45,558 nucleotides of DNA from Actinomycetota bacterium (GTDB lineage Bacteria; Actinomycetota; Acidimicrobiia; Acidimicrobiales; UBA8592): assembly GCA_039029775.1 (NCBI GenBank), contig JBCCFK010000001.1, positions 1 through 45,558 of the forward strand. The letters are read 5' to 3'. The position numbers were made by a program, and so were the translations under genes. The notes beneath the pieces were generated by a model. It worked only from the letters and a program-made list of their open reading frames with translations. It did not search any database and was not told where the DNA came from. Positions 7,000-44,098 of the stretch are shown piece after piece (position 1 is the first letter of the stretch; each line of letters opens with the position of its first letter).

Positions 7000-7047
7000 C
7001 GCATGGTCGCACTCGCCACGGGCGGCGACAATGGATTTCCGCGGGTC

Positions 7048-31136: not shown

Positions 31137-31191
31137 GAGCCTCGACGCTACCGGTATGTCGGGGCCCGGCCGGGCTGTACCGTTTTCGGCC

Positions 31192-32211
31192 ATGCAGCCC
31201 GACGCGCCGAACTTCGGAGCCGCCCGCGAGGCGGAGCTGGCGGCCGAGGCGGCGTCCTGGGACACCAGCGCACCAGGCTCGGCGACCGCCGACGACGTGC
31301 CCGTCGTCGACGTGGCTGCGTGGTTGAGAACGGGCGATGCCCGGGAGCTCCGCCGGCTCGGTGACCAGGTGCGCCACATCGGCGAGGAGCTCGGGTTCCA
31401 TCTGCTCGTCGGCCACGGGATCGCCCCCGCGCTGTTCCAGCGGATGTTCGACGCGGCCGCCGCCTTCCTGTCGATGGAGGAGTCGGACAAGCGGACCATC
31501 GTCATGGACCAGCCCGATGCCCCGGTCAACGGCATCGGATGGCTCCCGCCCAAGGAGCGTCGCCTCCCCACGAGGTCCAAGGGCAACCTGAACGAGGCCA
31601 TCCTCTTCAAGCAGGATCGCGACCACCGGCTCGCGCACAATCTGTGGCCGGACCCGGCGCTCGTGCCCGACTTCCGTTCGACCGTCGAGGAGTACGCCGC
31701 GGAGATCGAGCGCGTCGCGCTGGGTCTGGTGCCGGTGTATGCCGCCGCACTCGACCTCCCCGGGGACTACTTCGACGACGCGTTCGCCTCACCGTTCTGG
31801 AGGCTCCGCATGACCCGATATCACCCCACCGACGCCGCCGATGCGGACGAGTTCGGGATCGCGCCGCACGTCGACACCACCTTCTTCACGTTGCTGGCGC
31901 AGAGCGGGCCCGGTCTGGTCATCCACTCACCGCGGCGGGATCGGTGGCTCGAGGTGCCACTGGTACGCGACGCGTTGGTGGTCAACACCGGCGAGCTCCT
32001 GAAGCAGTGGTCCAACGACCGCTTCCTGAGCGTCAAGCACTTCGTGCCGCCGCATCGGGGTCCGGGCGACCGCTACAGCGTCCCGTTCTTCTTCAATGCC
32101 ACGGCGGATCATCCAATGGCCTGCCTGCCGACGTGCCACGGTCCCGACAACCCGCCCAGGTACCCGACCGTCTCGTACCTCGAGAGTCAGGCGGCGGCAC
32201 AGCGTGAGTAG
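31192..32211 (+). CDS. 2-oxoglutarate/Fe(II)-dependent oxygenase (isopenicillin N synthase-like family)
   Basis: Part of ORF 31063..32211: ...VPVVDVAAW...GFHLLVGHGI...RLRMTRYHP...GIAPHVDTTFFTLL (HxD)...NTGELLKQWSNDRFLSVKHFV (His...RxS). The start is ATG 31192 or ATG 31156. Confidence 0.88.
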   Translation: MQPDAPNFGAAREAELAAEAASWDTSAPGSATADDVPVVDVAAWLRTGDARELRRLGDQVRHIGEELGFHLLVGHGIAPALFQRMFDAAAAFLSMEESDKRTIVMDQPDAPVNGIGWLPPKERRLPTRSKGNLNEAILFKQDRDHRLAHNLWPDPALVPDFRSTVEEYAAEIERVALGLVPVYAAALDLPGDYFDDAFASPFWRLRMTRYHPTDAADADEFGIAPHVDTTFFTLLAQSGPGLVIHSPRRDRWLEVPLVRDALVVNTGELLKQWSNDRFLSVKHFVPPHRGPGDRYSVPFFFNATADHPMACLPTCHGPDNPPRYPTVSYLESQAAAQRE

Positions 32212-33142: not shown

Positions 33143-34536
33143 GGATCACCCAGGTCAAGAGCCTGCGCGACGCCGAGGCCTTCGAGGCTCACGTCGAGTC
33201 GCTCGGCGTGGATCTCCCGTGGCACGACGACCCGGCGTCGGTCCTGTCCCGTCGCGTCGTGGTGCGGGACGGGACGGCCGGGGAGCTGTCCGCGTCGAAC
33301 CGGTTGGCGATCCTCCCGATGGAGGGATGGGACGGGACCGCCGACGGTCGCCCGACCGACCTCGTGCAGCGGCGATGGGCCCGGTTCGGAGCCAGCGGTG
33401 CCGGGCTGGTCTGGGGGGAGGCCACCGCGCTCGTCCCCGAGGGCCGCGCGAACCCGAACCAGCTGGTGCTCAGCGACGAGACGGTCGAGGACATCGCGGC
33501 CCTTCGAGCACTCCTGGCGGACGATCAGGTTGCTGGCCTGCAGCTCACCCACTCCGGTCGGTACGCCCGACCCGCCGATCGGGCGCCCAGGACCGCCTAC
33601 GTGCACCCGGCCCTCGACGAGCCCTCCGGCGCGACCGAGGCGTCGGTGCTGTCCGACGACGAGCTCGACGAGCTCGTCGTCGCGTTCGTGGACGCCGCGG
33701 TGCTGGCACGCGACGCCGGGTTCGACTTCGTCGACGTCAAGGCCTGCCACGGCTACCTCGGGCACGAGTTGTTGAGCGCGTACGACCGGACGGGCCGATA
33801 CGGCGGCGACTTCGCCGGCCGCACCCGGTTCATGCGCAGCGTGATCGAAGGCATCCGAAGCCGGGCGCCGGACCTCGCCATCGGTGCCCGGATCTCGATC
33901 TTCGACATGGCTCCGTTCCGCCCGGGCGCCGGCGGCGTCGGCGAGACCACCGCCGACGGCGAGTACCGGTACGCGTTCGGCGGCGACGGCACAGGGGTCG
34001 GGATCGACCTCGCAGAGCCGTCGGCGCTGCTGTCGATGCTCGAGGACCTGGGGGTCGGCCTGGTGAGCGCCACGGCGGGGAGCCCGTACTACGTCCCGCA
34101 TGTCCAGCGCCCCGCCTACTTCCCGCCGTCGGACGGCTATCGGCCTCCCGAGGATCCGCTGGTCGGCGTCGCCCGGCTGCTCGCCGCCACCGCGGAGCTC
34201 GCCCGTCGCCATCCCGCCATCGTGGTCGTCGGCTCCGGCTACTCCTACCTGCAGCAGTGGCTGGCGCCGGTGGCCGCGGGGGCGGTCGCGGAGGGGGGAG
34301 CCTCGATGATCGGGCTCGGTCGGATGGCGCTGTCGTATCCCGACATGCCCAACGACGTCCTGGCGGAGGGAGCGCTGCAGACCAGGCTGATCTGTCGGAC
34401 CTTCAGCGACTGTACGACGGCGCCCCGCGCCGGACTGGTCTCGGGGTGCTTCCCACTCGACCCCTTCTACAAGGAGCACGAGCATCGCGTGGCGTTGGCG
34501 GCGGCCAAGAAGGCCAGCCGTTCACGCCTCGGGTGA
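33139..34536 (+). CDS. Old Yellow Enzyme-type NADH:flavin oxidoreductase
   Basis: Part of ORF 32914..34536 from the GTG at 33139, which forms a GTGA overlap with the upstream stop: ...NRLAILPMEGW...GLVWGEATALVPEGRAN...QLTHSGRY...FDFVDVKACHGYLGHELLS...RTGRYGGDFAGRTRF...IGARIS. Confidence 0.88.
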   Translation: MRITQVKSLRDAEAFEAHVESLGVDLPWHDDPASVLSRRVVVRDGTAGELSASNRLAILPMEGWDGTADGRPTDLVQRRWARFGASGAGLVWGEATALVPEGRANPNQLVLSDETVEDIAALRALLADDQVAGLQLTHSGRYARPADRAPRTAYVHPALDEPSGATEASVLSDDELDELVVAFVDAAVLARDAGFDFVDVKACHGYLGHELLSAYDRTGRYGGDFAGRTRFMRSVIEGIRSRAPDLAIGARISIFDMAPFRPGAGGVGETTADGEYRYAFGGDGTGVGIDLAEPSALLSMLEDLGVGLVSATAGSPYYVPHVQRPAYFPPSDGYRPPEDPLVGVARLLAATAELARRHPAIVVVGSGYSYLQQWLAPVAAGAVAEGGASMIGLGRMALSYPDMPNDVLAEGALQTRLICRTFSDCTTAPRAGLVSGCFPLDPFYKEHEHRVALAAAKKASRSRLG

Positions 34537-35541
34537 CGTGGTGGCCTCGCCGACGACGTTGGTGTCGGCGAGGCGGTACAGCAGCAGCAGAGGGGGAATG
34601 ACCAGGGCGGCCGCGATCCCGCTGGCCACCAACAGTCCGATCAGGGTGGCTCGAGCACCGGCGCCGTCGGCGATCTCGGTCTCGTCGACGAGGATCCACG
34701 GGTACTGGGCCACGCCCCAACCGGCGACCACGGTGGCGACCGCGATCGCCCCGCTGATGCGCGCGTGACGCAACCGCCGTTGCTGCAGCAGCCGGAGCGT
34801 CCACAGGCCCGCGATGCCGGACGCGGCGATCACCGGGAGTCCTCGGCCGAGGAGGCCGTCGACGAGGGTCTCGTCGTCGATCACGAGGACCGGGATGCCC
34901 GCCAGCGCGATGCCGCCGGTGATGAGCCCGCCGATCAACGTCTTCTGCCGCAGTTCCTCGGCCAGATCGCCCTCGCCGAGGCTCTCGGCCTCGGCGGCGA
35001 GGAGGAGGCCGGCCATGAAGGTGCAGGTGGCGATGGCGAGGACGCCACCGAGGACCGACGTGGCCGACAGCCAGGAGGTCCACAGCCCCGCGCGCCCATC
35101 GGCGGGGACTCGACCCGACGCGACGGCGCCGGCGATGGCTCCGAGGAAGAAGGGCGTCAGCAGTGACGAAGCCGCGAACACCACCCCGGCGGTCTGGGCC
35201 CACCCGAGGGTGGGGGAGTACTTCCTGAACGCGAACGCCGCACCGCGCAGCACGATGCCGAGGCCGGCGAACCACAGCGGGATCGCGAGCGTCTGGACGA
35301 GATCGGTGAACGGCTCGGGGAAGCCGGACCACAACAGCACCAGCACGAAGATCAACCACACGTGGTTGGCCTCCCACACGGGCCCGATCGCATGGTCGAT
35401 CAAGCGGCGCAGGCGGGCGCCCTTCTTCGCGTCGCCCGCGGTGAGATCCCACACCCCCGAACCGAAGTCGGCGCCGCCGAAGACCGCATAGAGGATGACC
35501 GCCGCGAACATGATGGCCGCCACCGCGTCGGCGGGACTCAC
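34522..35541 (-). CDS. cydB: Cytochrome bd ubiquinol/menaquinol oxidase subunit II
   Basis: ORF 34522..35541: ...ILYAVFGGADFGSGVWDL...IGPVWEANHVWLIFVLV... The GTG start overlaps the cydA stop (GTGA). Confidence 0.93.
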   Translation of the reverse strand: MSPADAVAAIMFAAVILYAVFGGADFGSGVWDLTAGDAKKGARLRRLIDHAIGPVWEANHVWLIFVLVLLWSGFPEPFTDLVQTLAIPLWFAGLGIVLRGAAFAFRKYSPTLGWAQTAGVVFAASSLLTPFFLGAIAGAVASGRVPADGRAGLWTSWLSATSVLGGVLAIATCTFMAGLLLAAEAESLGEGDLAEELRQKTLIGGLITGGIALAGIPVLVIDDETLVDGLLGRGLPVIAASGIAGLWTLRLLQQRRLRHARISGAIAVATVVAGWGVAQYPWILVDETEIADGAGARATLIGLLVASGIAAALVIPPLLLLYRLADTNVVGEATTSPEA

Positions 35542-36914
35542 GCCCGGATCTCCTCTGGTGTCTCGACCGGCGGCCCGTACGGCGCCTCGAGGTCGTGCTC
35601 ACCCGCCGCCCAGCGGCGCGACATCGAACGGATCACCGCCACCGCGGCAGCCGTCATGCCGGCGTAGACCACGACGAGGATGCCGAGAGTCACCCAGATG
35701 TAGCCGGCGTCGGTGACCGCGTCCTCGGTCCGCAGCAGGCCGTGCACGATCCACGGCTGACGGCCCACTTCAGTCGTGACCCACCCCGCCTCCATGGCCA
35801 CGACCGCGGCGGGCCCGGCCACGACGAGCGCGCGCAGCATCCACGTGGAGGCCAACGGTTCGTCGCTGCGACGCCACCGCCAGCCCGCCCAGGCGATGAG
35901 GGCGACCAGCGCGGTGCCGATGAAGACCATCAGCTGGAAGGCGGCGTGGACGATCGCCACCGGCGGTTGGTCGTCCTCGGGGACGGTGTCGAGGCCGAGC
36001 AACGTGCCGTCGAAGTCGTTGGTCGACAGGAACGAGAGCAGGCCGTCGATCGGGATCTCGATGGCACCGACCAGCTCCTCCCCGTTCCACCATCCGCCGA
36101 GCTCGAGGTTCGCCGACTCCGTGGTGGTGGCCAGGCCCTCCATCGCCGCGAGCTTGATCGGCTGTTCGTCCGCCAGCCGTTGCCCCGCGAAGTGACCGAC
36201 CAGCGGCTGGATCGGGGTGGCGACGGCGGCGAACACGAGCGGGATCACGATCCCCAGGCGATGGATCCGCTCGCGACGACCCCGCAGCCAGCCGGCTGCG
36301 TAGACCGATGCCACGCAGAAGCCGACGACCATCACCGCGGCCAGGTACATGTGGAGGAACTGGAGCCAGACGGCGGAGTTGAAGATCGCGGCGATGGGGT
36401 CGACGTCGACGACCTCGCCGTTCACGATCTCGAATCCGGTGGGCGCGTTCATCCAGGCGTTCACCGACACCACGAGGAAGGAGCCGGTGACCCCGGCGGC
36501 CATGATCGGGATCAGCATCAGCGAGTGGACGCGCCCCGGGAGGCGGCCCCAGCCGTAGACGTAGATGCCCAGGAAGATCGCCTCGAGGAAGAACGAGATG
36601 CCCTCGAGCGTGAAGGCCAGCCCGATGACGTCGCCGTACTGCTCCATCAGTCCCGGCCACAGCAGACCGAGCTCGAACGACAGGATCGTGCCGGACACGG
36701 CGCCGATCGCGAAGAGCACGGCCGCCACCTTCGACCACCGCTTCGCCAGCTCCAGCGCGACGTCGTCGCCGGCGAGTCCCTTGCGGTGGAGGACGTAGAT
36801 CATCGCCGGGAAGGTCATGCCGAAGCAGGCGAGGATGATGTGCCAGCCCAGCGACAGCGCCATCTGGTTCCGAGCGGGGAGGAGCGCATCGGACGAGGCG
36901 AGCACGGTGAGCAC
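35538..36914 (-). CDS. cydA: Cytochrome bd ubiquinol/menaquinol oxidase subunit I
   Basis: ORF 35538..36914: ...ARNQMALSLGWHIILACFGMTFP...GTILSFELGLLWPG...FTLEGISFFLEAIFLGIYVYGW...GWVTTEVGRQPW. Confidence 0.95.
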   Translation of the reverse strand: MLTVLASSDALLPARNQMALSLGWHIILACFGMTFPAMIYVLHRKGLAGDDVALELAKRWSKVAAVLFAIGAVSGTILSFELGLLWPGLMEQYGDVIGLAFTLEGISFFLEAIFLGIYVYGWGRLPGRVHSLMLIPIMAAGVTGSFLVVSVNAWMNAPTGFEIVNGEVVDVDPIAAIFNSAVWLQFLHMYLAAVMVVGFCVASVYAAGWLRGRRERIHRLGIVIPLVFAAVATPIQPLVGHFAGQRLADEQPIKLAAMEGLATTTESANLELGGWWNGEELVGAIEIPIDGLLSFLSTNDFDGTLLGLDTVPEDDQPPVAIVHAAFQLMVFIGTALVALIAWAGWRWRRSDEPLASTWMLRALVVAGPAAVVAMEAGWVTTEVGRQPWIVHGLLRTEDAVTDAGYIWVTLGILVVVYAGMTAAAVAVIRSMSRRWAAGEHDLEAPYGPPVETPEEIRA

Positions 36915-36950: not shown

Positions 36951-37865
36951 CTAGTCGGAGGTGTCTGCCGTCACCTCGGCTCGACTCCGTGAGGTGATCC
37001 ATGCCCCGCCCAACACGACCACGGTGCCGACCACGGCCCAGCCGCTCAGCGACTCGTCGCGGAAGACCACACCGAGGACCGCAGCGACGATCGGAATGAG
37101 ATAGGTGACGATCGACATGCGGACCGCGCCCACGCGCCCGCCCAACGTCGCCGCGGCGATGTAGGCGAGCCCGGTCCCGCCCGCGCCGAGCACGGCACAC
37201 GCGATCAACGCCCCCCAGTCGAACGACGAGTCGATCAGGTCGATGAGGCCGAAGGGGGCGGTGAACAGGGCCGCCCAGGCCAAGGCCGTGCGCAGGACCG
37301 GGAGCGAGCCGTACTTCTGCGTCAGCGGCGTGTTCATGTTGGCCGCCACGCCGTAGGACGTGACCGCCAGCAGCACGAGACCGACACCGAGGGCGTTGGT
37401 GTCGCCGGTGGTCGCCGTGGGGATGCCGATGCAGAGAATGCCGACCACGCCGACCAGCACACCGATGGCCTGCCGGCGGACGATGGTGGCCCCGAAGACC
37501 GCGACGCCGACGACCAGCGTCATGATCGGCATCGCCGAGTTCAACATGCCGGTGACCGACGAGTCGATCCACTGCTGCGCGAGCGGGAACATCGTGAAGG
37601 GCAACGCCATCCAGACGAAGCCGAGGCCCACCACCGTCGGACGATCGGCGGCGTGGATCGGTCGTCGGGACGACGGGATCGCAGCGAGCGTGATGGCCCC
37701 GAACGAGGCGCGCAGCCACGTGACCAGCCCCGGCTCGAAGTCGTCGAGGGCGATGTCCATCAGCAGGAAGCTGGATCCCCAGATGCCGGCAGCCAGCGTG
37801 AGGAGCGCCCAGTCGAGCGGCTCGAACGATCGGGCCTCGGCGGAGGCGGTCGCGCTGGCGGTCAC
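36951..37865 (-). CDS. EamA/DMT superfamily transporter
   Basis: ORF 36951..37865 with ten hydrophobic segments: ...LLTLAAGIWGSSFLLMDIAL... and a second EamA-like half. Confidence 0.85.
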   Translation of the reverse strand: MTASATASAEARSFEPLDWALLTLAAGIWGSSFLLMDIALDDFEPGLVTWLRASFGAITLAAIPSSRRPIHAADRPTVVGLGFVWMALPFTMFPLAQQWIDSSVTGMLNSAMPIMTLVVGVAVFGATIVRRQAIGVLVGVVGILCIGIPTATTGDTNALGVGLVLLAVTSYGVAANMNTPLTQKYGSLPVLRTALAWAALFTAPFGLIDLIDSSFDWGALIACAVLGAGGTGLAYIAAATLGGRVGAVRMSIVTYLIPIVAAVLGVVFRDESLSGWAVVGTVVVLGGAWITSRSRAEVTADTSD

Positions 37866-37988
37866 TGCCGCCCACCCGGTGTGGCCATGGGCGCCACGCT
37901 AACGGCGCCCGTCGCGGATCCCTGGCGGAATTCGGACCGTCACCCCGCCGAACGGGACGGCCAAGCACGGCGGTGGCAAGCTGCGGGC

Positions 37989-38816
37989 ATGACCACTGCG
38001 CCCGAGACCGATACCGACCCCGTGCTCTCGTCGTCACCGGAGCCCGGCATCACCCTCCTCACCCTCAACCGGCCCGATCAGCTCAACGCCATGACGTACG
38101 AGTTGGTCGAGCGCCTCCACGAGCGGCTCGACGAGGTCGATCGGGACCACGGGTGCCGAGCGGTCGTTCTCACCGGTGCCGGCCGCGGGTTCTGTGCCGG
38201 CCTCGACCTCAACGGTTTCGGGGTGGTTCCCGGCAACGAGGAGTTCGGCCGGCCACAGGCCGGGATGGCGACCCAACAGATCATCGCCGACCTCGTGCCA
38301 CGGATGCGCGACGTCCGGCAGCCGATCATCGCCGCGGTGAACGGTGCCGCCGCAGGCGGTGGGTTCGCGCTCACGCTCGCGAGCGACGTCAGGGTCGCGT
38401 CGACGTCGGCCAAGTTCGCGACGGCGTTCGTTCGGCTCGGCCTCTCGGGGTGCGACATCGGCGTGTCCTGGATGCTCCCTCGCCTGATCGGCTCGGGTCG
38501 GGCGTGGGAGCTCCTGCTGACGGGCCGCGTCTTCGACGCCGCGGAGGCCGATGACCTGGGTCTGCTGACGCGGGTCGTCGAACCCGACGACCTGCTGGAC
38601 ACGGCACTGCACTTCGCGGGGCTGATCGCCGGCAACTCGCCGTTCGGGGTCTGGATGACCAAGGAGGTCATGTGGTCGAACCTCGAGATCCCGTCGCTGC
38701 GCGCCGGCATCGACCTCGAGAACCGGACCCAGATCATGGCCAGCGGCACCGAAGACAGTCGTGCCGCGATGGGCGGCTTCCTGCGCGGCGAGACCCCCGA
38801 CTGGCAGAACCGCTGA
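37989..38816 (+). CDS. Enoyl-CoA hydratase/isomerase (crotonase) family protein
   Basis: Part of ORF 37653..38816 from the ATG at 37989: ...ITLLTLNRPDQLNAM...VVLTGAGRGFCAGLDL...PIIAAVNGAAAGGGFALTLASDVRV. Confidence 0.9.
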   Translation: MTTAPETDTDPVLSSSPEPGITLLTLNRPDQLNAMTYELVERLHERLDEVDRDHGCRAVVLTGAGRGFCAGLDLNGFGVVPGNEEFGRPQAGMATQQIIADLVPRMRDVRQPIIAAVNGAAAGGGFALTLASDVRVASTSAKFATAFVRLGLSGCDIGVSWMLPRLIGSGRAWELLLTGRVFDAAEADDLGLLTRVVEPDDLLDTALHFAGLIAGNSPFGVWMTKEVMWSNLEIPSLRAGIDLENRTQIMASGTEDSRAAMGGFLRGETPDWQNR

Positions 38817-38819
38817 GGG

Positions 38820-39338
38820 TCACCTGCTCAGCAGCTCGACACACCGCTCGGCGGCCGTGGCGGCGCGCTCGTTCAACACATCGGTGGTCGCCGAGCTGAT
38901 CGGGTGCGGGATCACCACGAACGGGTAGTCCTCGGCGCCGAGCGTGCGAGCCATCAGCTCGGCCGCGCTGACGAAGGCCTCGGTCATGATGCCGACCGAC
39001 GGCAGGCCGAGGCGCTCACCCGAGACGGCGTCGTGCAGACTGCACGACGAGCAGCTGCCTCAATCGCCGACACCCGCCACCAGGGCGTTCCACCTCTTGG
39101 CCCGGTCGAGGATGTCGTCGCCGGCGGGGGCGCTGTAGTTGGGCTTGGTGACCCGCTCGACCTCGGCGACACCTCGAGCGCGCAGCTCGGTCTCCAGCGC
39201 ATCGAAGAACGGGCGGGTGCCCTGCTTGCCGTTGGAGATGATGCCGACCGTGATGCCCGAGAGGTCCGGCAGGCGGTCGGCCAGCTTTGTGACCTCGGCT
39301 TCCTCTTCGTGGGTGGGGTTCAGGACCTCGAGGCTCAT
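38820..39338 (-). CDS. Candidate selenoprotein of the UGSC type (172 aa, with the in-frame TGA at 39060-39062 read as Sec)
   Basis: The ORF track stops ORF 39060..39338 at a TGA. My translation of the same frame continues for 79 codons (GSCSSCSLHDAVSGERLGLPSVGIMTEAFVSAAELMARTLGAEDYPFVVIPHPISSATTDVLNERAATAAERCVELLSR) to the TGA at 38820-38822, and 74 of the 79 codons end in G/C. The context is VAGVGD-U-GSCSSC. No independent start or RBS exists for the downstream part. A hairpin follows the TGA. The ATG at 39338 lies 1 nt after the upstream stop. Confidence 0.7.
39029..39049 (-). promoter_or_regulatory. Candidate bacterial SECIS hairpin
   Basis: On the mRNA strand: UGA + 10 nt + CGUCGUGC-AGUCU-GCACGACG. 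This is an 8-bp perfect stem with a 5-nt apical loop that has G at loop position 2. The loop starts 18 nt after the UGA, within the range reported for bacterial SECIS elements. Confidence 0.5.
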
Positions 39339-39339
39339 C

Positions 39340-40398
39340 TCAGGGCACCTCGCAGTCCACGCAGGCGCCGATGCCGACGGTGACGGCCCGGCTCTTGTGG
39401 CCCAGCCACGGGGGGATCACCATGCCGAAGCCGCCCGCCGGACCGCCGGCTGCGATCACCAGGACGTGATCGGGGTCCGGGAGCGCCGCGTACTCCCGGT
39501 CGCCCTTGTCCTGGACCACTGCGCCCTTGCCGACGTCGGCCCACTCGCGGCGGCGGATCCGGGCATTGTCGAACACGTACCGGCGGATGTCCGCCTTGGA
39601 CCAGCCGGCGGCCACGAAGTGGGTCCGCAGCTGCGGCGGGATCACGAGTGCGTAGTTGCCCGGCCAGATCGAGTAGTGGCGCATGTTGGCCTTGATCTCC
39701 GCGCAGTACGTGTCGAGGATCTGCTCGGGGTCGGTGGTCCACTCGTTCATGATCTGGCGGGGCGACATCGCGGCCATCACCGTCACCGCCGACACGTGGG
39801 GATCGCCGAGTCGTTCGCCGGCGAGGGACGGCCATGGCGAGTTGTCCTCGTCCTCGACGATGCAGAAGCTGACCTTGCCCGGGTGCCCGAACGTCGAGCG
39901 ATCGATGTCGCCTGGACGGACGTCCATGAGGTTGATGAGGACCAGGCGGACCGCCCGCCCGACGGCCGTGCTCGCCCGGTCGCTCGGTCCGACGGCGTTG
40001 AAGGTGCCGTCCATCCCGAGCTCGTTGCGGATCGGGCCGTTCACCACGACGAGGACAGCCGACCCGCCGGTGCTGGCGGTGGCGCCGTGGCACAGGAATG
40101 GTTCCTGCAGCATCGCCGTCACCGCGGTGACCACGACCGGGAAGTGCTGGGGCAGGCATCCGGCCATCACCGCGTTGATCGCCACCTTCTCGGCGGTGAT
40201 GCGTCGGGGTCGGACCGGCTCGATGCCCACCAGGTGATCCGCGGTCAGACCGGCCCAGTCGAGGCACGCCTGCACCGCCTCAGCGGTTGGTGGCACGACC
40301 GGCAGTCCATCGGTCCAGCCTCGGTTGTGGAACAGCTCCTGGGCCGCGTGGATGTCGTCGACCGCGATCGACTCCGAGCCGAGCGTCACGTTGATCAC
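39340..40398 (-). CDS. Conserved hypothetical protein (352 aa), partner of the candidate selenoprotein
   Basis: C-terminal part of ORF 39340..41154 from the GTG at 40398, which forms a GTGA overlap with the LLM stop: VINVTLGSESIAVDDIHAAQELFHNRGWTDGLPVVPPT...MAGCLPQHFP...FLCHGATASTGG...GIGACVDCEVP. It has strong GC3 and is soluble. I cannot assign a family by eye. Confidence 0.75.
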   Translation of the reverse strand: MINVTLGSESIAVDDIHAAQELFHNRGWTDGLPVVPPTAEAVQACLDWAGLTADHLVGIEPVRPRRITAEKVAINAVMAGCLPQHFPVVVTAVTAMLQEPFLCHGATASTGGSAVLVVVNGPIRNELGMDGTFNAVGPSDRASTAVGRAVRLVLINLMDVRPGDIDRSTFGHPGKVSFCIVEDEDNSPWPSLAGERLGDPHVSAVTVMAAMSPRQIMNEWTTDPEQILDTYCAEIKANMRHYSIWPGNYALVIPPQLRTHFVAAGWSKADIRRYVFDNARIRRREWADVGKGAVVQDKGDREYAALPDPDHVLVIAAGGPAGGFGMVIPPWLGHKSRAVTVGIGACVDCEVP

Positions 40399-41252
40399 GC
40401 CATCCCGGTGGTCTTGCGGAGGGCGTCGATCCGGCCGTCGAGGCTCTCGAGGCTGCCGGCGAACAGCGGCAGGATCAGTTGAGCCACGCCGGCGGCGGCG
40501 TAGGCCTCGACCATGTCCCGGTCGACACCCGACCGGTTGGGGCTGATGTAGACGTCGATCTCGTCCCGGCTGCGACCGGCGGCCTCCAGGTGGGTGTCGA
40601 GGCGCAGGAGATGGCTCTCGACCTCGTCGGGGCCCACGCCGTAGCCGTACCAGCCCGTGGCGAAGGTGGCGACGCGGCGGAGGGCCGGCTCGCTCTCGCC
40701 GCCGACGAACACCGGCACGGGTGATTGCACCGGCTTGGGGTTGAACTGCGCGTTGCGGATGGAGACGGTCTGACCCTCGAACGTCACCGGATCGGGTCCC
40801 CAGAGGGCTTTCATCGCCGCCATGTACTCCGTCGTGTCCCTCGCCCGGCGCTTGAAGTCCATGCCCAGGGCGTCGAACTCCTCCTCGAGCCATCCGATGC
40901 CGATACCGAAGTCGACCCGTCCGTTCGAGAGGTAGTCCAGGTCGGCGACCATCTTGGCGGTGTACACGGGTTGGCGCTGTGGCACGAGGCAGATGCCGGT
41001 GCCGAGCCGGAGCCTCGTCGTGTTCGCGGCGACGAAGGTGAGTGCGGTGAACGGATCCAGCACACCGTCGGGGTCCCCCGGCACCTTCCCGTCCTTCGAG
41101 TAGGGATACGACGACTCGTACTCGGGGAAGAACAGCACGTGTTCGGGAACCCACACCGTCGCGAACCCCGCGGCCTCGATGCGCTGGGCCGCCCCGACGA
41201 TGTAGTCGATGGGCGTGTGGTGGCTGAATGCGGTCGTGATCCCGATGTCCAT
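40395..41252 (-). CDS. LLM-class (luciferase-like) probable F420-dependent oxidoreductase
   Basis: ORF 40395..41252: MDIGITTAFSHHTPIDY...GFATVWVPEHVLF...RLRLGTGICLVPQRQPVYTAKMVADLDYLSNGRVDFGIGIGW...VPVFVGGES. Confidence 0.88.
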   Translation of the reverse strand: MDIGITTAFSHHTPIDYIVGAAQRIEAAGFATVWVPEHVLFFPEYESSYPYSKDGKVPGDPDGVLDPFTALTFVAANTTRLRLGTGICLVPQRQPVYTAKMVADLDYLSNGRVDFGIGIGWLEEEFDALGMDFKRRARDTTEYMAAMKALWGPDPVTFEGQTVSIRNAQFNPKPVQSPVPVFVGGESEPALRRVATFATGWYGYGVGPDEVESHLLRLDTHLEAAGRSRDEIDVYISPNRSGVDRDMVEAYAAAGVAQLILPLFAGSLESLDGRIDALRKTTGMA

Positions 41253-41298
41253 GGCCGTGGACGCTAGACCGTCGGGGCCCGTCGGGCGGCGAGGAAGC

Positions 41299-41844
41299 TC
41301 AGACGTCCTCGGTCCACAGCGCCCGCATGTCGTCGCGGCTCATCCGTTCGATGCCGCTCGCGTAGTTGAGGGCGTTGCGGTGGTAGAAGCGTGCGTTCCA
41401 GGCGTTGTTCTCGCTGTTGTCCCGCTCGCCCACCTGCTTGGCCGGGACGCCGGCGATGATCGAGTTCGCCGGGAACTCGTGGCCTTCGGAGACGATGGCG
41501 TGGCCGGCGACGATCGAGTTGTCCCCGATGACCGAGCCGTCCATGAGGGTGGCGTTGATGCCGATGAGACACCGGTCGCCGATCTCACAACCGTGGAGCG
41601 TGACGTGGTGTGTGACCGAGCAGAGCTCGCCGACCACGGTGGGGGTACGCCCGCCGACGTGCACCATCACGAAGTCCTGGATGTTCGACTTCGCGCCGAT
41701 CCGGATCTCGTGCAGCTCCGCGCGCATGACCACGTAGGGCCAGACCGACGCGCCCGGCCCGATGTGGACCTTGCCGTGGATGAGCGCGGTCTCGTGGATG
41801 AACGCCGGGTCCTCGAGCGTGACCTCGGCTCCGATGTGGCCCAT
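41299..41844 (-). CDS. Gamma carbonic anhydrase-like / left-handed beta-helix (hexapeptide repeat) protein
   Basis: ORF 41299..41844: ...AFIHETALIHGKVHIGPGASVWPYVVMRAELHEIRIGAKSNIQDFVMVHV...VTLHGCEIGDRCLIGINATLMDGSVIGDNSIVAGHAIV. Confidence 0.85.
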   Translation of the reverse strand: MGHIGAEVTLEDPAFIHETALIHGKVHIGPGASVWPYVVMRAELHEIRIGAKSNIQDFVMVHVGGRTPTVVGELCSVTHHVTLHGCEIGDRCLIGINATLMDGSVIGDNSIVAGHAIVSEGHEFPANSIIAGVPAKQVGERDNSENNAWNARFYHRNALNYASGIERMSRDDMRALWTEDV

Positions 41845-41866
41845 GGATCTCCCTGTGGTCGACCTG

Positions 41867-41887
41867 CCGCGGTCCCAGAGACCGCGG
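41867..41887. promoter_or_regulatory. Inverted repeat CCGCGGTC-ccaga-GACCGCGG in the divergent spacer between the LbH gene and the TetR gene
   Basis: Perfect 8-bp arms, located 23 nt upstream of the LbH ATG (41844). It is followed by an AT-richer stretch (acaaacaaacatttgcagatgtatgtaagt, about 41990-42019). Confidence 0.4.
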
Positions 41888-42037
41888 CGGGTTTCGGCCG
41901 GTCGGCAGATGGTAATCGGCGGTGTCGTCGGGGAGACCCGGCCCGCCGCGACGTTTCAGGTGGTGCCAGGCACGAATCGAAACGCTCCGACAAACAAACA
42001 TTTGCAGATGTATGTAAGTGGGTGCCACGATGCTTCC

Positions 42038-42601
42038 GTGGCAACGCGGCGCACGCAGGCAGAACGGTCGGCTTCGACCCAGCACGCGCTGATCGAAGCG
42101 GCGATCGAGTCGCTCGTCGAGCGCGGCTGGGCCGCAACCACGGCGGTCGAGGTCTGCCAGCGCGCCGGCGTCACCCGAGGCGCCCTCATGCACCACGTCC
42201 CCGACCTCTCGAGCCTGCTCGCCCGAGCGCTCGAGACGGTGTACCAGGGGATCCGGGTCGAGCCGCCCGACACCCTCGTCGGCTTCGTCGACACCGTCGA
42301 GGAAGCGGTCACCAACCCGCGCTTCGTCGCCGTCATCGAGGCGTGGATGGCCGCCGGCAACGACCCCGAGCTGGCGCAGGAGATCGGTCCGGCGATCTCC
42401 CGATTCGCCAAGCTGATCGACCCCAGCGAGCGACTCGGCGACCTCGGCGTCGACGCCGTCACCTTCTGCTACACCGCACGCGAGACCGCCATCGGCCTCG
42501 CCCTCGGCCGCGCCGTCACCGGCGACGCCGTCGGCCACGAAGAGCTCGTGTTCGACGACCTCCGCGCCCGCGCCACCGAGCTCGACCGAACCCGATCCTG
42601 A
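42038..42601 (+). CDS. TetR/AcrR family transcriptional regulator
   Basis: Part of ORF 41762..42601. HTH region: STQHALIEAAIESLVERGWAATTAVEVCQRAGVTRGALMHHVPDLSSL. The start is GTG 42038 or ATG 42008. Confidence 0.85.
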   Translation: MATRRTQAERSASTQHALIEAAIESLVERGWAATTAVEVCQRAGVTRGALMHHVPDLSSLLARALETVYQGIRVEPPDTLVGFVDTVEEAVTNPRFVAVIEAWMAAGNDPELAQEIGPAISRFAKLIDPSERLGDLGVDAVTFCYTARETAIGLALGRAVTGDAVGHEELVFDDLRARATELDRTRS

Positions 42602-42694
42602 TCAGCCCGATCCATCCCGTCCCGAGAGGCGTCCGCCACGACCCCGAACTCGACCACGACGCCGACGAGTGACCGGGTAGTAGCTTTCCCGGCC

Positions 42695-44098
42695 ATGACC
42701 GACAGCTTCGACGTCGACTACCTCGTCATCGGTGCGGGGGCCATGGGGATGGCCTTCACCGATGTGATCCTGACCGAGAGCGACGCCACCGTCGCGCTGG
42801 TCGACCGCCGGCCGAGGCCCGGTGGGCACTGGAACGACGCCTATCCGCATGTCCGGCTGCATCAGCCGTCGGCGTTCTACGGCGTGAACTCACGCGAGCT
42901 GGGGACCGAGGCGATCGACGCCTACGGCTGGAACGAGGGCCTAAGCGAGCTGGCGTCGGGTACCGAGGTCGTCGCCTACTTCGACCAGGTCCTGCGCCAG
43001 CAGTTCATGTCGACCGGTCGCGTGCAATGGTTCCCCCTGCACGAGCATCAGGGGGGCGGCGACATCCGCTCGATCGCCACGGGGGACGTGACGTCGATCT
43101 CGGCCCGCAAAGTGGTCGACGCCCGCTACATGAACGTCACCGTGCCGTCGGTGAAGGCGCCGGACTACGAGATCGGCGACGGCGTCACCTGCATTCCGCC
43201 GAACGGGTTGTCGCGGCCGGGCGTGTTGCCCGCCGAGTCCTTCGTGGTGATCGGCGGCGGCAAGACCGGGATGGACGCGTGCCTGTTCCTCATCGAGAAC
43301 GGCGTGCCCACCGACGACATCACCTGGATCCGGCCGCGGGACTCCTGGTGTCTCGACCGGGCCCGGATCCAACCCGGCCAGGACTTCTTCGAGTTGACCG
43401 TGGGCGGCCAGGCGTCGCAGCTCCAGGCGGTGGCGGAGTCCGAGAGCATTGCCGACATGTGGGAGCGCATCGAGGCCGAGGGCCTCTTGCTGCGCTTCGA
43501 TCCCGACGTGACGCCGACCATGTATCGCTGTGCCACGGTGAGCCAGGCCGAGCTCGCCGCACTCAAGACCGTGACCGACGTCGTTCGCATGGGCCGGGTC
43601 CAACGCATCACGGCAGACGAGATCGTCCTCGACCAGGGCACGATCCCGACCTCGCCGGGCACGGTGCACATCGACTGCTCGGCGGACGGTCTGGAGCGGC
43701 GGCCGATCGTGCCCGTTTTCGACGGCGACCGAATCACGCTGCAGACCGTGCGGACGTGTCAGCAGGTGTTCAGCGCGGCGTTCATCGGCCACGTCGAGGT
43801 GGCCTACGACGACGAGGCGCAGAAGAACGAGCTCGCCACGGTGGTGCCCCATCCCGACACCGACGAGGACTGGCTTCGGGTGACGCTCGGCGGCCTCCTC
43901 AACTCTGCGCGCTGGCGTGCGGACGCCGACCTCGGCGAGTGGCTCCGGGACGCCCGGCTCGACGCCTTCAGCTCGATCCGGTTCCCCGAAGGCGATGCGA
44001 TCCCGGCGGGCCACGCCGAGACGATGGCCCGCATCGAGGAACACGCCCTGCCCGCCGTCCTCAAGCTCCAGGAGTACGTCGCCGAGCTGGATCTGTGA
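42695..44098 (+). CDS. FAD/NAD(P)-binding oxidoreductase (flavin-containing monooxygenase-like)
   Basis: ORF 42695..44098. First dinucleotide motif: DYLVIGAGAMGMAF...DRRPRPGGHW. Second motif: FVVIGGGKTGMDACL. Confidence 0.8.
   Translation: MTDSFDVDYLVIGAGAMGMAFTDVILTESDATVALVDRRPRPGGHWNDAYPHVRLHQPSAFYGVNSRELGTEAIDAYGWNEGLSELASGTEVVAYFDQVLRQQFMSTGRVQWFPLHEHQGGGDIRSIATGDVTSISARKVVDARYMNVTVPSVKAPDYEIGDGVTCIPPNGLSRPGVLPAESFVVIGGGKTGMDACLFLIENGVPTDDITWIRPRDSWCLDRARIQPGQDFFELTVGGQASQLQAVAESESIADMWERIEAEGLLLRFDPDVTPTMYRCATVSQAELAALKTVTDVVRMGRVQRITADEIVLDQGTIPTSPGTVHIDCSADGLERRPIVPVFDGDRITLQTVRTCQQVFSAAFIGHVEVAYDDEAQKNELATVVPHPDTDEDWLRVTLGGLLNSARWRADADLGEWLRDARLDAFSSIRFPEGDAIPAGHAETMARIEEHALPAVLKLQEYVAELDL

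What the first reader, a model, noticed from the sequence alone, without database searches (positions are those of the whole stretch)
38820..42601. Tightly coupled four-gene operon of unknown function (LbH/gamma-CA-like, F420-type LLM, hypothetical, selenoprotein) facing a divergent TetR
All four genes lie on the minus strand with minimal spacing. There are 46 nt between the LbH gene and the LLM gene. The LLM stop and the hypothetical-gene start overlap as GTGA (40395-40398). Only 1 nt separates the hypothetical-gene stop (39340-39342) from the selenoprotein ATG (39338). A TetR gene is transcribed divergently from a 193-bp spacer. The operon combines a deazaflavin/flavin-type oxidoreductase, a Cys-rich protein of unknown function and a U-x-x-C redox protein. 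That arrangement resembles multi-subunit reductase systems that use a selenoprotein as the redox-active carrier, such as glycine or proline reductases. However, none of these sequences matches those known systems in any way I can recognise. I know of no characterised pathway with this gene set, so the function is an open question.
Basis: inference. Interest (0 to 1): 0.72.

Follow-up and report, generated by a model that had tools for sequence, protein, structure and literature searches.

The report
Selenoprotein UGSC and its unnamed partner enzyme
The part of this four-gene cluster that is conserved is a two-gene module: a selenocysteine protein of the known but uncharacterised UGSC family, and directly upstream a 352-residue enzyme from a very large, unnamed family with no known structural relative, which probably work together as a thioredoxin-fed redox enzyme.

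Summary
Four minus-strand genes sit at the stated coordinates with the stated spacings, and a TetR gene faces them. The four genes are not a conserved unit. The LbH, LLM and TetR genes accompany the pair only in near-identical (95%) relatives.

The conserved core is the 352-aa protein (P352) followed by the UGSC selenoprotein. In 75 of 78 evaluable genome loci, spanning at least eight phylum- or class-level lineages, a UGSC gene follows a P352 gene on the same strand. All 75 have TGA at the Sec position and a conserved SECIS-like hairpin. The two proteins are also found fused, in both orders.

Other P352 fusion partners are all thiol-redox modules: Redoxin/AhpC-TSA, ferredoxin-thioredoxin reductase beta and a Pyr_redox_2 flavoprotein domain. 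Cys-type versions in cultured strains sit in trxB–trxA–P352–UGSC or P352–UGSC–trxB clusters. In seven loci selA and/or selB flank the module; tRNA-Sec does in one.

P352 represents about 5,200 clusters at 50% identity. It has no Pfam, NCBIfam or PDB match, and its confident AlphaFold model has no real fold neighbour.

Best reading: a two-subunit selenol/thiol redox enzyme recharged by the thioredoxin system. The substrate is unknown.

The parts
38820..39338 (-). UGSC-family selenoprotein gene, 172 aa including Sec93. The motif is GD-U-GSC-SSC.
   Evidence: The translation reads through the TGA. Pfam PF24696 UGSC scores 166.7 bits against a cutoff of 25. NCBIfam NF041046 scores 121 bits against a cutoff of 125, with C substituted for U. 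Homologs in 75 loci all have TGA at this position.
39060..39062 (-). In-frame UGA that encodes selenocysteine 93.
   Evidence: TGA occupies the aligned position in 75 of 75 loci, and protein conservation continues on both sides of it. Rare homologs have Cys here.
39029..39049 (-). SECIS-like hairpin, C-GTCGTGCA-GTC-TGCACGAC-G, starting 10-11 nt after the UGA.
   Evidence: The hairpin is present in all 75 loci. 92% of cells are paired, and the core 7 bp are about 99% paired. Columns 21/33 show the series G-C, G-U, A-U. 12 cells show a change on both sides of a pair, against 5.4 expected from shuffles (2 of 500 shuffles reached this). No Rfam family reached threshold.
39340..40398 (-). P352, a 352-aa protein of a large undescribed family and the conserved partner of UGSC. 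Superfamily-wide residues are D30, C81, R141, R148, E182 and W189, plus C179. The C-terminal C346-x-x-C349 is specific to the close subfamily.
   Evidence: No Pfam or NCBIfam hit. More than 7,950 homologs, with 73-95% identity across the listed top 120, which include Actinomycetota and Alphaproteobacteria records. 5,188 clusters at 50% identity. The AlphaFold2 model has pLDDT 91.5 and pTM 0.92. The best Foldseek PDB hit has E 8e-4 and TM <= 0.32. No PDB sequence match.
40395..41252 (-). Luciferase-like oxidoreductase of the TIGR03619 (F420-dependent LLM) family, 285 aa. It is lineage-specific context, and its stop overlaps the P352 start.
   Evidence: TIGR03619 scores 252 bits against a cutoff of 167, and PF00296 scores 183 bits. 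It lies upstream of P352 in L081, L082 and L083 (95% P352 relatives). L084 has an unverified upstream gene of about the same size. No orthologous LLM is in this position in the 80 more distant loci.
41299..41844 (-). Left-handed beta-helix protein of the gamma-carbonic-anhydrase / PaaY / CaiE type, 181 aa. It is the first gene of the local cluster and is lineage-specific context.
   Evidence: PF00132 Hexapep scores 56 bits. The gamma-CA, PaaY and CaiE models score 109, 106 and 88 bits, all below their equivalog cutoffs. It is present in L082 and L083 only. One weak, distant hit occurs in the 80 loci.
42038..42601 (+). Divergent TetR-family regulator gene. An alternative ATG start lies at 42008.
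   Evidence: PF00440 TetR_N scores 33.5 bits against a cutoff of 24. It is not conserved next to the cluster: the 95% relative L082 has TauD and PhyH genes in its place.
41845..42037 (.). Divergent intergenic region with two palindromes, 41862-41892 and 41952-41984. These are candidate operator sites.
   Evidence: the repeat finder found 13-nt arms at 92% complementarity and 16-nt arms at 75%. No sigma-70-type promoter or intrinsic terminator was called anywhere in 38500-42700.

Best explanation
The functional unit is a two-gene module, not a four-gene pathway. P352 (39340-40398) is the main enzyme subunit. It belongs to a very large family that no database describes. The UGSC selenoprotein (38820-39338) is its dedicated partner.

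Shown:
- The two genes are adjacent and co-oriented in almost every genome that has P352 of this subfamily.
- The two proteins occur as single fused polypeptides in both orders.
- The Sec codon and its SECIS hairpin are conserved.

Inferred:
- The two proteins form a heteromeric enzyme. Its active site or electron path combines Sec93 (with Cys96) of UGSC and the near-universal Cys81 (with Cys179) of P352. Sec93 sits at the end of a beta-strand and the start of a helix in a flavodoxin-like domain.
- In the window's subfamily, a flexible C-terminal Cys346-x-x-Cys349 tail may shuttle electrons.
- After each turnover, the resulting selenenylsulfide or disulfide is re-reduced by NADPH through thioredoxin reductase, with or without thioredoxin.

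The substrate is unknown. The commonest neighbours are a family III CoA-transferase and carboxylate transporters (TctC, TRAP, MFS). This points weakly to a small carboxylic acid or its CoA ester.

In this window the module has been placed behind an LbH gene and an F420-type LLM gene. Given the overlapping stop and start it is probably co-transcribed with them, possibly under the divergent TetR. That arrangement is specific to this lineage.
For: Synteny:
- A UGSC gene follows P352 on the same strand in 75 of 80 genome loci. Two of the other five are truncated at the P352 3' end. In 69 of the 75 the gap is under 200 nt.
- The loci come from Acidimicrobiia, Alpha-, Beta- and Gammaproteobacteria, Myxococcota, Binatia, Chloroflexota and Methylomirabilota.
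- Starting instead from UGSC proteins, the upstream gene is again a P352 homolog.

Fusions:
- UGSC-P352 (P0251, P0262, P0172) and P352-UGSC (P0145).
- 25 of the 50 long P352 representatives carry a UGSC domain.
- All other fusion partners are thiol-redox modules: AhpC-TSA/Redoxin with a CPTC motif (5), ferredoxin-thioredoxin reductase beta (2) and Pyr_redox_2 (1).

Thioredoxin-system neighbours:
- Arthrobacter sp. ERGS1:01 has trxB-trxA-P352-UGSC.
- Roseovarius sp. THAF8 has P352-UGSC-trxB.
- Variovorax sp. SRS16 has trxB-TctC-SDR-P352-UGSC.
- Thioredoxin-reductase-like genes also lie next to the pair in L085, L086, L090, L063 and L068.

Selenocysteine:
- Sec is retained in 75 of 75 loci, and Cys forms are rare.
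- selA, selB and tRNA-Sec flank the module in L010. selA and/or selB are near it in L042, L067, L068, L070, L071 and L074.

Conserved residues:
- C81 is near-invariant superfamily-wide, and C179 nearly so.

Local coupling:
- GTGA overlap between LLM and P352, and a 1-nt gap between P352 and UGSC.
Against: - No biochemical data exist, and no substrate can be named.
- I could not model the complex or obtain coordinates, so the proximity of Sec93 to Cys81 and Cys179 is untested.
- Neighbouring genes are heterogeneous. Nothing beyond UGSC is present in more than 18 of 80 loci.
- No thioredoxin reductase gene lies in this window, or near most Sec-type loci. The reductant there would have to be the housekeeping thioredoxin system.
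- In the Vibrio europaeus and Sporomusa termitida fusions, the UGSC-like domain has Met in place of Sec/Cys. The domain can therefore serve a non-redox, structural role.
- In one branch Cys179 is His. A Cys81-Cys179 disulfide therefore cannot be universal.
- U-x-x-C-x-x-C could also be a metal or cluster ligand set.
Confidence: 0.6

Rival explanations
1. All four genes (LbH, F420-type LLM, P352, UGSC) encode one dedicated pathway controlled by the divergent TetR. The LLM would supply or consume reducing equivalents for the selenoprotein system.
For: - Spacing is tight and there is a stop/start overlap.
- No terminator is called inside the cluster.
- LbH-LLM-P352-UGSC recurs in L082 and L083, and LLM-P352-UGSC in L081.
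- Unrelated LLM paralogs lie within 6 kb in about 11 other loci.
- LbH (CaiE/PaaY-like), crotonase and CoA-transferase neighbours recall CoA-ester pathways.
Against: - The arrangement is seen only where P352 is 95% identical, so it carries almost no independent evolutionary weight.
- At 82% identity and below, none of the 80 loci has an orthologous LLM or LbH in this position.
- TetR is already absent in L082.
- L081 has an extra 113-aa ORF between LLM and P352.
- LLM hits elsewhere are at 24-42% identity, in varied positions and on varied strands.
Confidence: 0.15
2. A distant analogue of glycine, sarcosine, betaine or D-proline reductase. P352 would be a substrate-binding 'protein B'-like subunit, possibly self-processed at Gly80-Cys81 to a pyruvoyl group. 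UGSC would be the Sec-bearing acceptor that cleaves a C-N (or C-S) bond reductively.
For: - A U-x-x-C selenoprotein is paired with a larger Cys-containing subunit.
- Thioredoxin-system genes are adjacent, as in grd and prd clusters (the grd/prd organisation is from my own knowledge).
- Near-absolute retention of Sec suggests a catalytic rather than a relay role.
Against: - No sequence similarity to GrdA, GrdB, GrdE, PrdA or PrdB families. At E <= 0.01 the only Pfam match among P352 and UGSC was UGSC to its own family, and no such family appeared at E <= 1 across 38 diverse P352 homologs.
- No GrdC/GrdD or PrdA-like genes were found among neighbours.
- The hosts are mostly aerobes, and the window carries cytochrome bd oxidase genes.
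- There is no evidence of self-cleavage.
Confidence: 0.1
3. P352 is a metal or Fe-S dependent hydro-lyase or isomerase-type enzyme, with a distant class I fumarate hydratase or Toblerone-like fold. UGSC would contribute Sec/Cys ligands (U-x-x-C-x-x-C) or would protect or repair the metal site, rather than carry electrons for substrate reduction.
For: - The best Foldseek hits are class I fumarate hydratases (probability up to 0.84 for 7xky_A) and cyanuric acid hydrolase / barbiturase.
- The C/U-x-x-C-x-x-C spacing resembles cluster-binding motifs.
- Variants with Met instead of Cys sit next to aconitase X and DUF126 genes.
- The Arthrobacter UGSC has a weak NifU-like tail.
Against: - TM-scores are 0.18-0.32, with rmsd of 13-17 A for the fumarate hydratase hits. 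This is no real fold match.
- Only one or two Cys are conserved across the P352 superfamily.
- The third Cys of UGSC is not conserved.
- All fusion partners are disulfide-redox modules.
Confidence: 0.12
4. The TGA is an ordinary stop, so there are two unrelated small ORFs and no selenoprotein.
For: Gene callers split the gene into products of 92 aa and 55-68 aa. No tRNA-Sec, selA or selB lies in the 45-kb window.
Against: - Protein conservation runs straight through the TGA in 75 of 75 loci.
- The hairpin at the right distance from the UGA is conserved.
- Cys-containing full-length homologs exist.
- The Pfam UGSC model covers both halves of the protein.
- The Sec machinery flanks the module in other genomes.
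Confidence: 0.02

Closest known systems
UGSC-containing selenoprotein family (Pfam PF24696, NCBIfam NF041046). It was found by Zhang, Gladyshev and co-workers in the Sargasso Sea and GOS metagenomes and in Hyphomonas neptunium (PMC2398784, PMC1976440).
   Same: The window protein matches the Pfam model end to end. It has the U-G-S-C motif, the in-frame TGA and a SECIS hairpin. As in GOS, Sec forms far outnumber Cys forms (255 against 21 there; 75 of 75 here).
   Different: Nothing differs for the protein itself: it is an ordinary member. The new points are these.
- Its near-obligate gene partner is documented here.
- Its predicted fold is flavodoxin-like, not the 'likely Trx-like fold' suggested in 2008.
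- It is linked to trxB/trxA genes and to selA/selB genes.

The 2008 paper noted a 'UGSC/Unknown_1 fusion'. Its figure is an image, and the stored dataset did not contain the motifs. I therefore could not confirm that Unknown_1 is the P352 family.
Glycine/sarcosine/betaine reductase (GrdA, GrdB, GrdE) and D-proline reductase (PrdA, PrdB)
   Same: A Sec protein with a U-x-x-C / C-x-x-U type motif works with a larger partner subunit, and the thioredoxin system is the electron donor (organisation from my own knowledge).
   Different: No detectable homology of either protein. There are no GrdC/GrdD or PrdA-type neighbours. The hosts are mainly aerobic aquatic and soil bacteria. The module has two genes only.
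Thioredoxin-dependent reductases that use a dedicated redoxin and sometimes a flexible C-terminal Cys pair. Examples are class Ia ribonucleotide reductase R1, MsrB, and thioredoxin-coupled ArsC of the LMW-PTP fold (own knowledge).
   Same: There are conserved catalytic Cys residues in the large subunit. A C/U-x-x-C partner sits at a strand-to-helix junction. trxB and trxA lie alongside. The window's subfamily has a low-confidence (probably flexible) C-terminal C-x-x-C tail.
   Different: No sequence or fold relationship. The partner is flavodoxin-like rather than thioredoxin-fold. The reaction is unknown.
Class I (Fe-S) fumarate hydratase, and Toblerone-fold cyclic amide hydrolases (cyanuric acid hydrolase, barbiturase)
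   Same: These are the only PDB entries that Foldseek returns for the P352 model with E near 1e-3.
   Different: TM-scores are at most 0.32 and identity is about 10%. There is no sequence signal. I do not regard this as membership or as an established fold relationship.

Membership tests
UGSC family (seleno)protein (PF24696 / NF041046) | Match to the family profile above its curated threshold | tested here: met
   PF24696 scores 166.7 bits against a cutoff of 25, covering residues 4-171 of 172. NF041046 scores 121 bits against a cutoff of 125 with Cys substituted for Sec. That is 4 bits short, and the substitution itself costs score.
UGSC family (seleno)protein (PF24696 / NF041046) | U-G-S-C motif with Sec encoded by an in-frame UGA | tested here: met
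   VGD-[TGA]-GSCSSC at 39062-39060. The same codon is present in 75 of 75 homologous loci.
UGSC family (seleno)protein (PF24696 / NF041046) | Bacterial SECIS stem-loop a short distance downstream of the UGA | tested here: met
   A hairpin lies at 39029-39049. It is conserved, with G-C / G-U / A-U exchanges. The coding constraint on GSCSSCSLHD confounds the covariation test, so support is moderate. No Rfam model hit.
Bacterial selenoprotein in general | The host genome encodes selA, selB, selC (tRNA-Sec) and selD | not testable with these tools
   None of these genes lies in the 45-kb window, and the rest of the genome is not available. In other genomes selA, selB and tRNA-Sec lie next to the module.
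Glycine / D-proline reductase systems | Homology of the subunits to GrdA, GrdB, GrdE or PrdA, PrdB families | tested here: not met
   At E <= 0.01 the only Pfam or NCBIfam matches were UGSC to its own family and a below-threshold HAD-IA hit. No Grd or Prd family appeared for either protein. None appeared at E <= 1 across 38 diverse P352 homologs.
Glycine / D-proline reductase systems | Accompanying grdC/grdD or prdA-type genes in the cluster | tested here: not met
   Neighbour clustering and Pfam scans of flanks in 80 loci found none.
Thioredoxin-fold redoxins | Thioredoxin fold around the C/U-x-x-C motif | tested here: not met
   The AlphaFold2 model of a Cys-form homolog (P0298, 34% identical to the window protein, pLDDT 90.8) has five beta-alpha units. 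Foldseek returns flavodoxin, CheY, TIR, lumazine-synthase and LMW-PTP type folds.
TIGR03619 F420-dependent LLM class oxidoreductase | Profile score above the curated cutoff | tested here: met
   252.3 bits against a cutoff of 166.9. Actual F420 use is not testable here.
Gamma-carbonic anhydrase / PaaY / CaiE equivalogs | Profile score above the equivalog cutoff | tested here: not met
   Scores of 109, 106 and 88 bits against cutoffs of 250, 320 and 305. Only the general hexapeptide-repeat (LbH) assignment holds: PF00132 scores 56 bits against a cutoff of 27.
TetR family regulator | N-terminal TetR helix-turn-helix domain | tested here: met
   PF00440 scores 33.5 bits against a cutoff of 24. 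Regulation of the cluster by this protein was not tested.
Class I fumarate hydratase / Toblerone-fold enzymes | Global structural superposition (TM above about 0.5) | tested here: not met
   The best TM-scores are 0.18-0.38, with E >= 8e-4.

The most novel reading that the evidence does not exclude
P352 plus UGSC is a previously unrecognised class of selenocysteine-dependent enzyme with a new catalytic fold. It is widespread in aerobic marine, freshwater and soil bacteria. In some genomes (for example a SAR116 cell and several Burkholderiales) it may be the principal reason the Sec-decoding machinery is kept. It would catalyse a thioredoxin-driven reductive step on a small carboxylate or CoA-ester metabolite that no known enzyme family performs.
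Probability: 0.35. Interest if true: 0.85.

Novelty: new variant of a known kind. Interest (0 to 1): 0.68.

Why it matters
[quoted passage not shown] It has had no known function for about twenty years (PMC2398784, PMC13188914).

Four results turn this open question into a testable one:
- UGSC is almost always encoded with one particular protein, and is sometimes fused to it.
- That protein belongs to a family with about 5,200 clusters at 50% identity. The family has no Pfam or NCBIfam model, and no relative was found in the PDB by sequence or fold search.
- Cys-type versions come with their own thioredoxin reductase and thioredoxin genes.
- Cultured carriers exist: Sheuella amnicola (Sec type), and Roseovarius sp. 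THAF8, Arthrobacter sp. ERGS1:01 and Variovorax sp. SRS16 (Cys type).

These results also suggest why some aerobic bacteria keep the costly Sec machinery.

For annotation, two points follow. The 92-aa and 55-68-aa split gene calls should be merged into one selenoprotein. The 'hypothetical protein' upstream deserves a family model.

Tried and rejected
- **Rfam scan of the window:** no hit, including no SECIS model.
- **tRNA scan of the window:** none found.
- **Pfam and NCBIfam on P352:** nothing, even at E <= 1 over 38 diverse members.
- **PDB sequence searches:** two P352 profiles and the UGSC profile gave nothing meaningful.
- **Foldseek against the PDB:** only weak or generic matches for both models. 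I rejected the fumarate hydratase and Toblerone leads as fold assignments.
- **Structure prediction of UGSC:** I modelled a Cys-form homolog instead.
- **The 2008 'Unknown_1' fusion domain:** I tried to confirm that it is P352. The figure panel is an image, and the stored datasets lack the motifs.
- **Search for a third universally conserved gene:** I clustered all ORFs of 90 aa or more in 80 loci and ran Pfam on same-strand neighbours. Nothing exceeds 18 of 80 loci.
- **Genes inserted between P352 and UGSC in six loci:** Pfam found an MFS transporter in one and a weak NYN-domain match in another. Three had no match and one (L033) was not scanned, so no pattern emerged.
- **The three complete loci without UGSC (L014, L058, L078):** no G[D/H]-[U/C]-G motif in any frame within 6 kb.
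- **Promoter and terminator scan:** no calls in this high-GC DNA.
- **A correction to my own reading:** I first read L081 as lacking the LLM gene. BLAST showed that its upstream 303-aa gene is the LLM, at 92% identity.
- **Literature search for 'UGSC':** only catalogue-type mentions, with no functional work.

Full report
**1. What is in the window**

The region is high-GC (about 69%) DNA.

- A 181-aa left-handed beta-helix protein lies at 41299-41844.
- After a 46-nt gap comes a 285-aa luciferase-like oxidoreductase at 40395-41252.
- A 352-aa protein (here called P352) lies at 39340-40398. Its GTG start overlaps the LLM stop as GTGA.
- One nucleotide after the P352 stop, a 172-codon frame begins at 39338 and ends at 38820. 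It contains an in-frame TGA at 39062-39060, within the motif VGD-U-GSCSSCSLHD.
- A TetR-family gene diverges from the cluster. Its start is at 42038, or at an alternative ATG at 42008.

Family scans gave the following.

| Protein | Result |
|---|---|
| LbH | Hexapeptide-repeat protein. It resembles gamma-carbonic anhydrase, PaaY and CaiE, but scores below every equivalog cutoff. |
| LLM | TIGR03619 F420-type LLM family, 252 bits against a cutoff of 167. |
| TetR | PF00440. |
| Small protein | Pfam PF24696 'UGSC family', 167 bits end to end. NCBIfam NF041046 scores 121 against 125 with Cys written for Sec. |
| P352 | No match in Pfam or NCBIfam. |

**2. The selenoprotein is real and belongs to a known family**

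UGSC-containing proteins were catalogued in the Sargasso Sea and GOS metagenomes. They rank among the most abundant aquatic selenoprotein families: 255 Sec forms against 21 Cys forms. Their function is unknown (PMC2398784; PMC1976440; 2022 and 2026 reviews).

In 75 homologous loci the aligned codon is always TGA, and the motif GD-U-GSCSS(C/G)S is almost invariant. A hairpin starts 10-11 nt after the UGA (window 39029-39049) and is present in all 75 loci. Its core 7 bp are about 99% paired. One pair shows G-C, G-U and A-U states. The number of cells changed on both sides of a pair exceeds the shuffled expectation, 12 against 5.4, with 2 of 500 shuffles reaching this. The coding constraint on this segment confounds that test, so I treat the covariation as moderate support.

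Rare full-length Cys forms exist. The reading 'two small ORFs' is effectively excluded.

**3. The conserved unit is two genes, not four**

P352 has more than 7,950 homologs in the word-indexed search. The listed top hits, which include Actinomycetota and Alphaproteobacteria records, are 73-95% identical. All named ones are called 'hypothetical protein'.

A scan of one genome per species found 594 confirmed homologs, and I kept the best 80 loci. They come from Acidimicrobiia, Alpha-, Beta- and Gammaproteobacteria, Myxococcota, Binatia, Chloroflexota and Methylomirabilota.

- tblastn with the five window proteins shows a UGSC gene downstream of P352 on the same strand in 75 of the 80 loci. In 69 of these the gap is under 200 nt.
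- Two of the five exceptions are cut at the P352 3' end. The other three have no UGSC-type motif within 6 kb.
- None of the 80 loci has an orthologous LLM or LbH in the window's position. About eleven carry unrelated LLM paralogs somewhere in the flanks.

The LbH-LLM-P352-UGSC order recurs only in contigs whose P352 is 95% identical: L082 and L083. L081 has LLM, then an extra 113-aa ORF, then P352. TetR is already replaced by TauD and PhyH genes in L082.

Clustering of all flanking ORFs found no third gene in more than 18 of 80 loci. The commonest are a family III CoA-transferase (14 loci, directly adjacent in L001, L010, L067, L070 and L071), LysR regulators and LLMs.

Starting from UGSC proteins instead, the upstream gene is again a P352 homolog.

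**4. Fusions and thioredoxin-system neighbours**

An exhaustive profile search shows that P352 represents a superfamily of 5,188 clusters at 50% identity with E <= 1e-3, and 1,216 clusters with E <= 1e-30. Among its long members the following fusions occur.

- UGSC-P352 fusions: P0251 and P0262 are Cys forms. P0172 begins just after the Sec codon.
- A P352-UGSC fusion: P0145, which ends at ...IGD, where the Sec codon would follow.

Of the 50 representatives longer than about 400 aa, 25 carry a UGSC domain. Five carry AhpC-TSA/Redoxin, one of which (P0178) shows a TlpA-like CPTC motif. Two carry the ferredoxin-thioredoxin reductase catalytic chain, and one a Pyr_redox_2 flavoprotein domain. Every fusion partner is a thiol-disulfide redox module.

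In annotated replicons of cultured strains the Cys-type pair sits in these clusters:

- trxB-trxA-P352-UGSC in Arthrobacter sp. ERGS1:01
- LysR-P352-UGSC-trxB in Roseovarius sp. THAF8
- trxB-TctC-SDR-P352-UGSC in Variovorax sp. SRS16

Metagenomic Cys-type loci have P352-UGSC-(TctC)-TrxR-like. The Sec-type loci L063 and L068 also have a TrxR-like gene nearby. RefSeq names UGSC correctly and leaves P352 as 'hypothetical protein'.

**5. Link to the Sec machinery**

In a SAR116 single-cell genome (L010) the gene order is:

- selB
- a CoA-transferase gene
- P352
- UGSC
- selA
- tRNA-Sec

selA and/or selB lie within 6 kb in L042, L067, L068 (Sheuella amnicola, a cultured isolate), L070, L071 and L074. 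That makes 7 of 80 loci, in both Alpha- and Betaproteobacteria. It suggests that in some genomes UGSC is a main client of Sec decoding.

**6. Structures**

The AlphaFold2 model of the window P352, built on a 38-sequence diverse alignment, is confident: pLDDT 91.5 and pTM 0.92. Only the C-terminal tail, which carries C346-x-x-C349, has low confidence.

Foldseek against the PDB gives no real neighbour. The best E-value is 8e-4, with TM 0.18-0.32 to class I fumarate hydratases and Toblerone-fold hydrolases, and TM 0.38 when normalised to the shorter M. jannaschii chain. Profile searches of PDB sequences find nothing.

A Cys-form UGSC homolog (P0298) models with pLDDT 90.8 as a five-unit beta/alpha, flavodoxin-like domain. 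The U/C-x-x-C motif lies at the end of strand 3 and the start of the following helix. Foldseek returns only generic flavodoxin, CheY, TIR and LMW-PTP type matches, not thioredoxin folds.

**7. Conserved residues**

Across the superfamily D30, C81, R141, R148, E182 and W189 are near-invariant. C179 is nearly so, but is His in the L085/L090 branch. The C-terminal CxxC is present in 59 of 78 sequences of the close subfamily and is absent in Burkholderiales and Binatia relatives that still pair with Sec-UGSC.

In UGSC the first position (U or C) is the only constant redox residue among forms that keep the motif. The second and third Cys can be lost. In the Vibrio europaeus and Sporomusa termitida fusions, which lie next to aconitase X and DUF126 genes, even the first position is Met. 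The UGSC domain is therefore an integral partner subunit that usually, but not always, carries the redox residue.

**8. Interpretation**

- **Shown:** P352 and UGSC form a tightly linked, widely transferred two-gene module. UGSC is a genuine selenoprotein. The module associates recurrently with thioredoxin-system genes and with Sec-machinery genes.
- **Inferred (about 0.6):** the pair is a heteromeric selenol/thiol redox enzyme. Sec93 and Cys96 cooperate with Cys81 and Cys179 of P352. In this subfamily the flexible C-terminal CxxC may act as a shuttle, and NADPH recharges the system through TrxB, with or without TrxA.
- **Weak inference:** the substrate is a small carboxylate or CoA ester. This rests on the CoA-transferase III, TctC, TRAP, MFS and crotonase neighbours.
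- **Local arrangement:** the module is probably co-transcribed with the LbH and LLM genes, given the overlap and the absence of terminator calls. This is a lineage-specific placement.

**9. Rivals**

- A genuine four-gene pathway: about 0.15.
- A glycine- or proline-reductase-like mechanism, possibly with a pyruvoyl group: about 0.1.
- A metal or Fe-S hydro-lyase with UGSC as ligand donor or protector: about 0.12.
- TGA as an ordinary stop codon: about 0.02.

**10. Novelty and verdict**

The selenoprotein is an ordinary member of a known, uncharacterised family. The four-gene operon is not a conserved system.

What I could not find described in the databases and papers available here:

- the near-obligate partnership of UGSC with P352
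- the size and unannotated state of the P352 family, and the absence of any relative of known structure
- the fusions to redox modules
- the trxB/trxA and selA/selB linkage

The 2008 GOS paper mentions a 'UGSC/Unknown_1' fusion that may be the same domain. I could not verify this.

I classify the finding as a new variant of a known kind, namely a redoxin- or selenoprotein-coupled reductase. A substantial chance remains that the chemistry is new.

Noticed in passing
L010:1929-8649 (SAR116 cluster bacterium AG-325-I21); also L042, L067, L068, L070, L071, L074: The Sec machinery surrounds the P352-UGSC module. In L010 the order is selB, CoA-transferase III, P352, UGSC, selA, tRNA-Sec. In six other loci selA and/or selB lie within 6 kb. 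This suggests UGSC is a principal client of Sec decoding in these genomes.
   Followed up: partly
L095:5398-7083 (Vibrio europaeus pVEu) and L096:5323-7047 (Sporomusa termitida pSPTER): These are UGSC-like/P352 fusion proteins of 561 and 574 aa. The Sec/Cys position is Met (…DMGTS…). Both lie next to aconitase X and DUF126 genes. They may be a non-redox offshoot of the family.
   Followed up: partly
L091:3725-4513 (Arthrobacter sp. ERGS1:01) and L092:2889-3356 (Natrinema zhouii): A gene annotated 'phosphosulfolactate synthase' lies near the P352/UGSC pair in both a bacterial and a haloarchaeal replicon. The 95% relative of the window (L082) has TauD and PhyH genes upstream. This is a possible hint at organosulfonate metabolism. 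I did not test it.
   Followed up: no
P0126, P0128, P0134, P0141, P0162, P0170 (about 710-740 aa): These proteins contain two tandem P352 domains and no recognised redox domain.
   Followed up: no
window 37947-38816 (+): An enoyl-CoA hydratase (crotonase) family gene converges on the UGSC gene. Only 3 nt separate the two stop codons. This neighbour is conserved in the 95% relatives L081-L083.
   Followed up: partly
window 34522-36914 (-): Cytochrome bd oxidase subunit I and II genes (cydAB) lie here. An EamA-family transporter gene lies at 36951-37865. These indicate an aerobic or microaerobic host.
   Followed up: partly
window 42695-44098 (+): A 467-aa protein with a weak N-terminal FAD/NAD(P)-binding signature lies here. 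It scores only 26 bits to an ArsO-type flavin monooxygenase model. A gene of the same size and with the same faint NAD_binding_8 signature is present in the 95% relative L082. No confident family assignment.
   Followed up: no
window 41862-41892 and 41952-41984: Two palindromes lie in the TetR/LbH intergenic region, with 13-nt arms at 92% and 16-nt arms at 75% complementarity. They are candidate operator sites.
   Followed up: no
L034, L046, L049 (about 0.9-kb insert, 7040-8009) and L024, L033, L047: In six loci a gene has been inserted between P352 and UGSC. In the three Acidimicrobiia / Poriferisodalis loci it is a 260-285-aa ORF with no Pfam match. In L047 it is an MFS transporter. In L024 it is an opposite-strand ORF with a weak NYN-domain match. 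The L033 insert was not scanned.
   Followed up: partly
window 30324-31640 (-): A second luciferase-like monooxygenase gene (PF00296, 122 bits) lies about 9 kb from the cluster.
   Followed up: no
L081-L084, L087 (gene calls): Public gene callers split the UGSC gene at the Sec codon into a 92-98-aa product and a 55-68-aa product. Some translate the UGA as W or R (P0271, P0272). This is a systematic mis-annotation of the family.
   Followed up: yes
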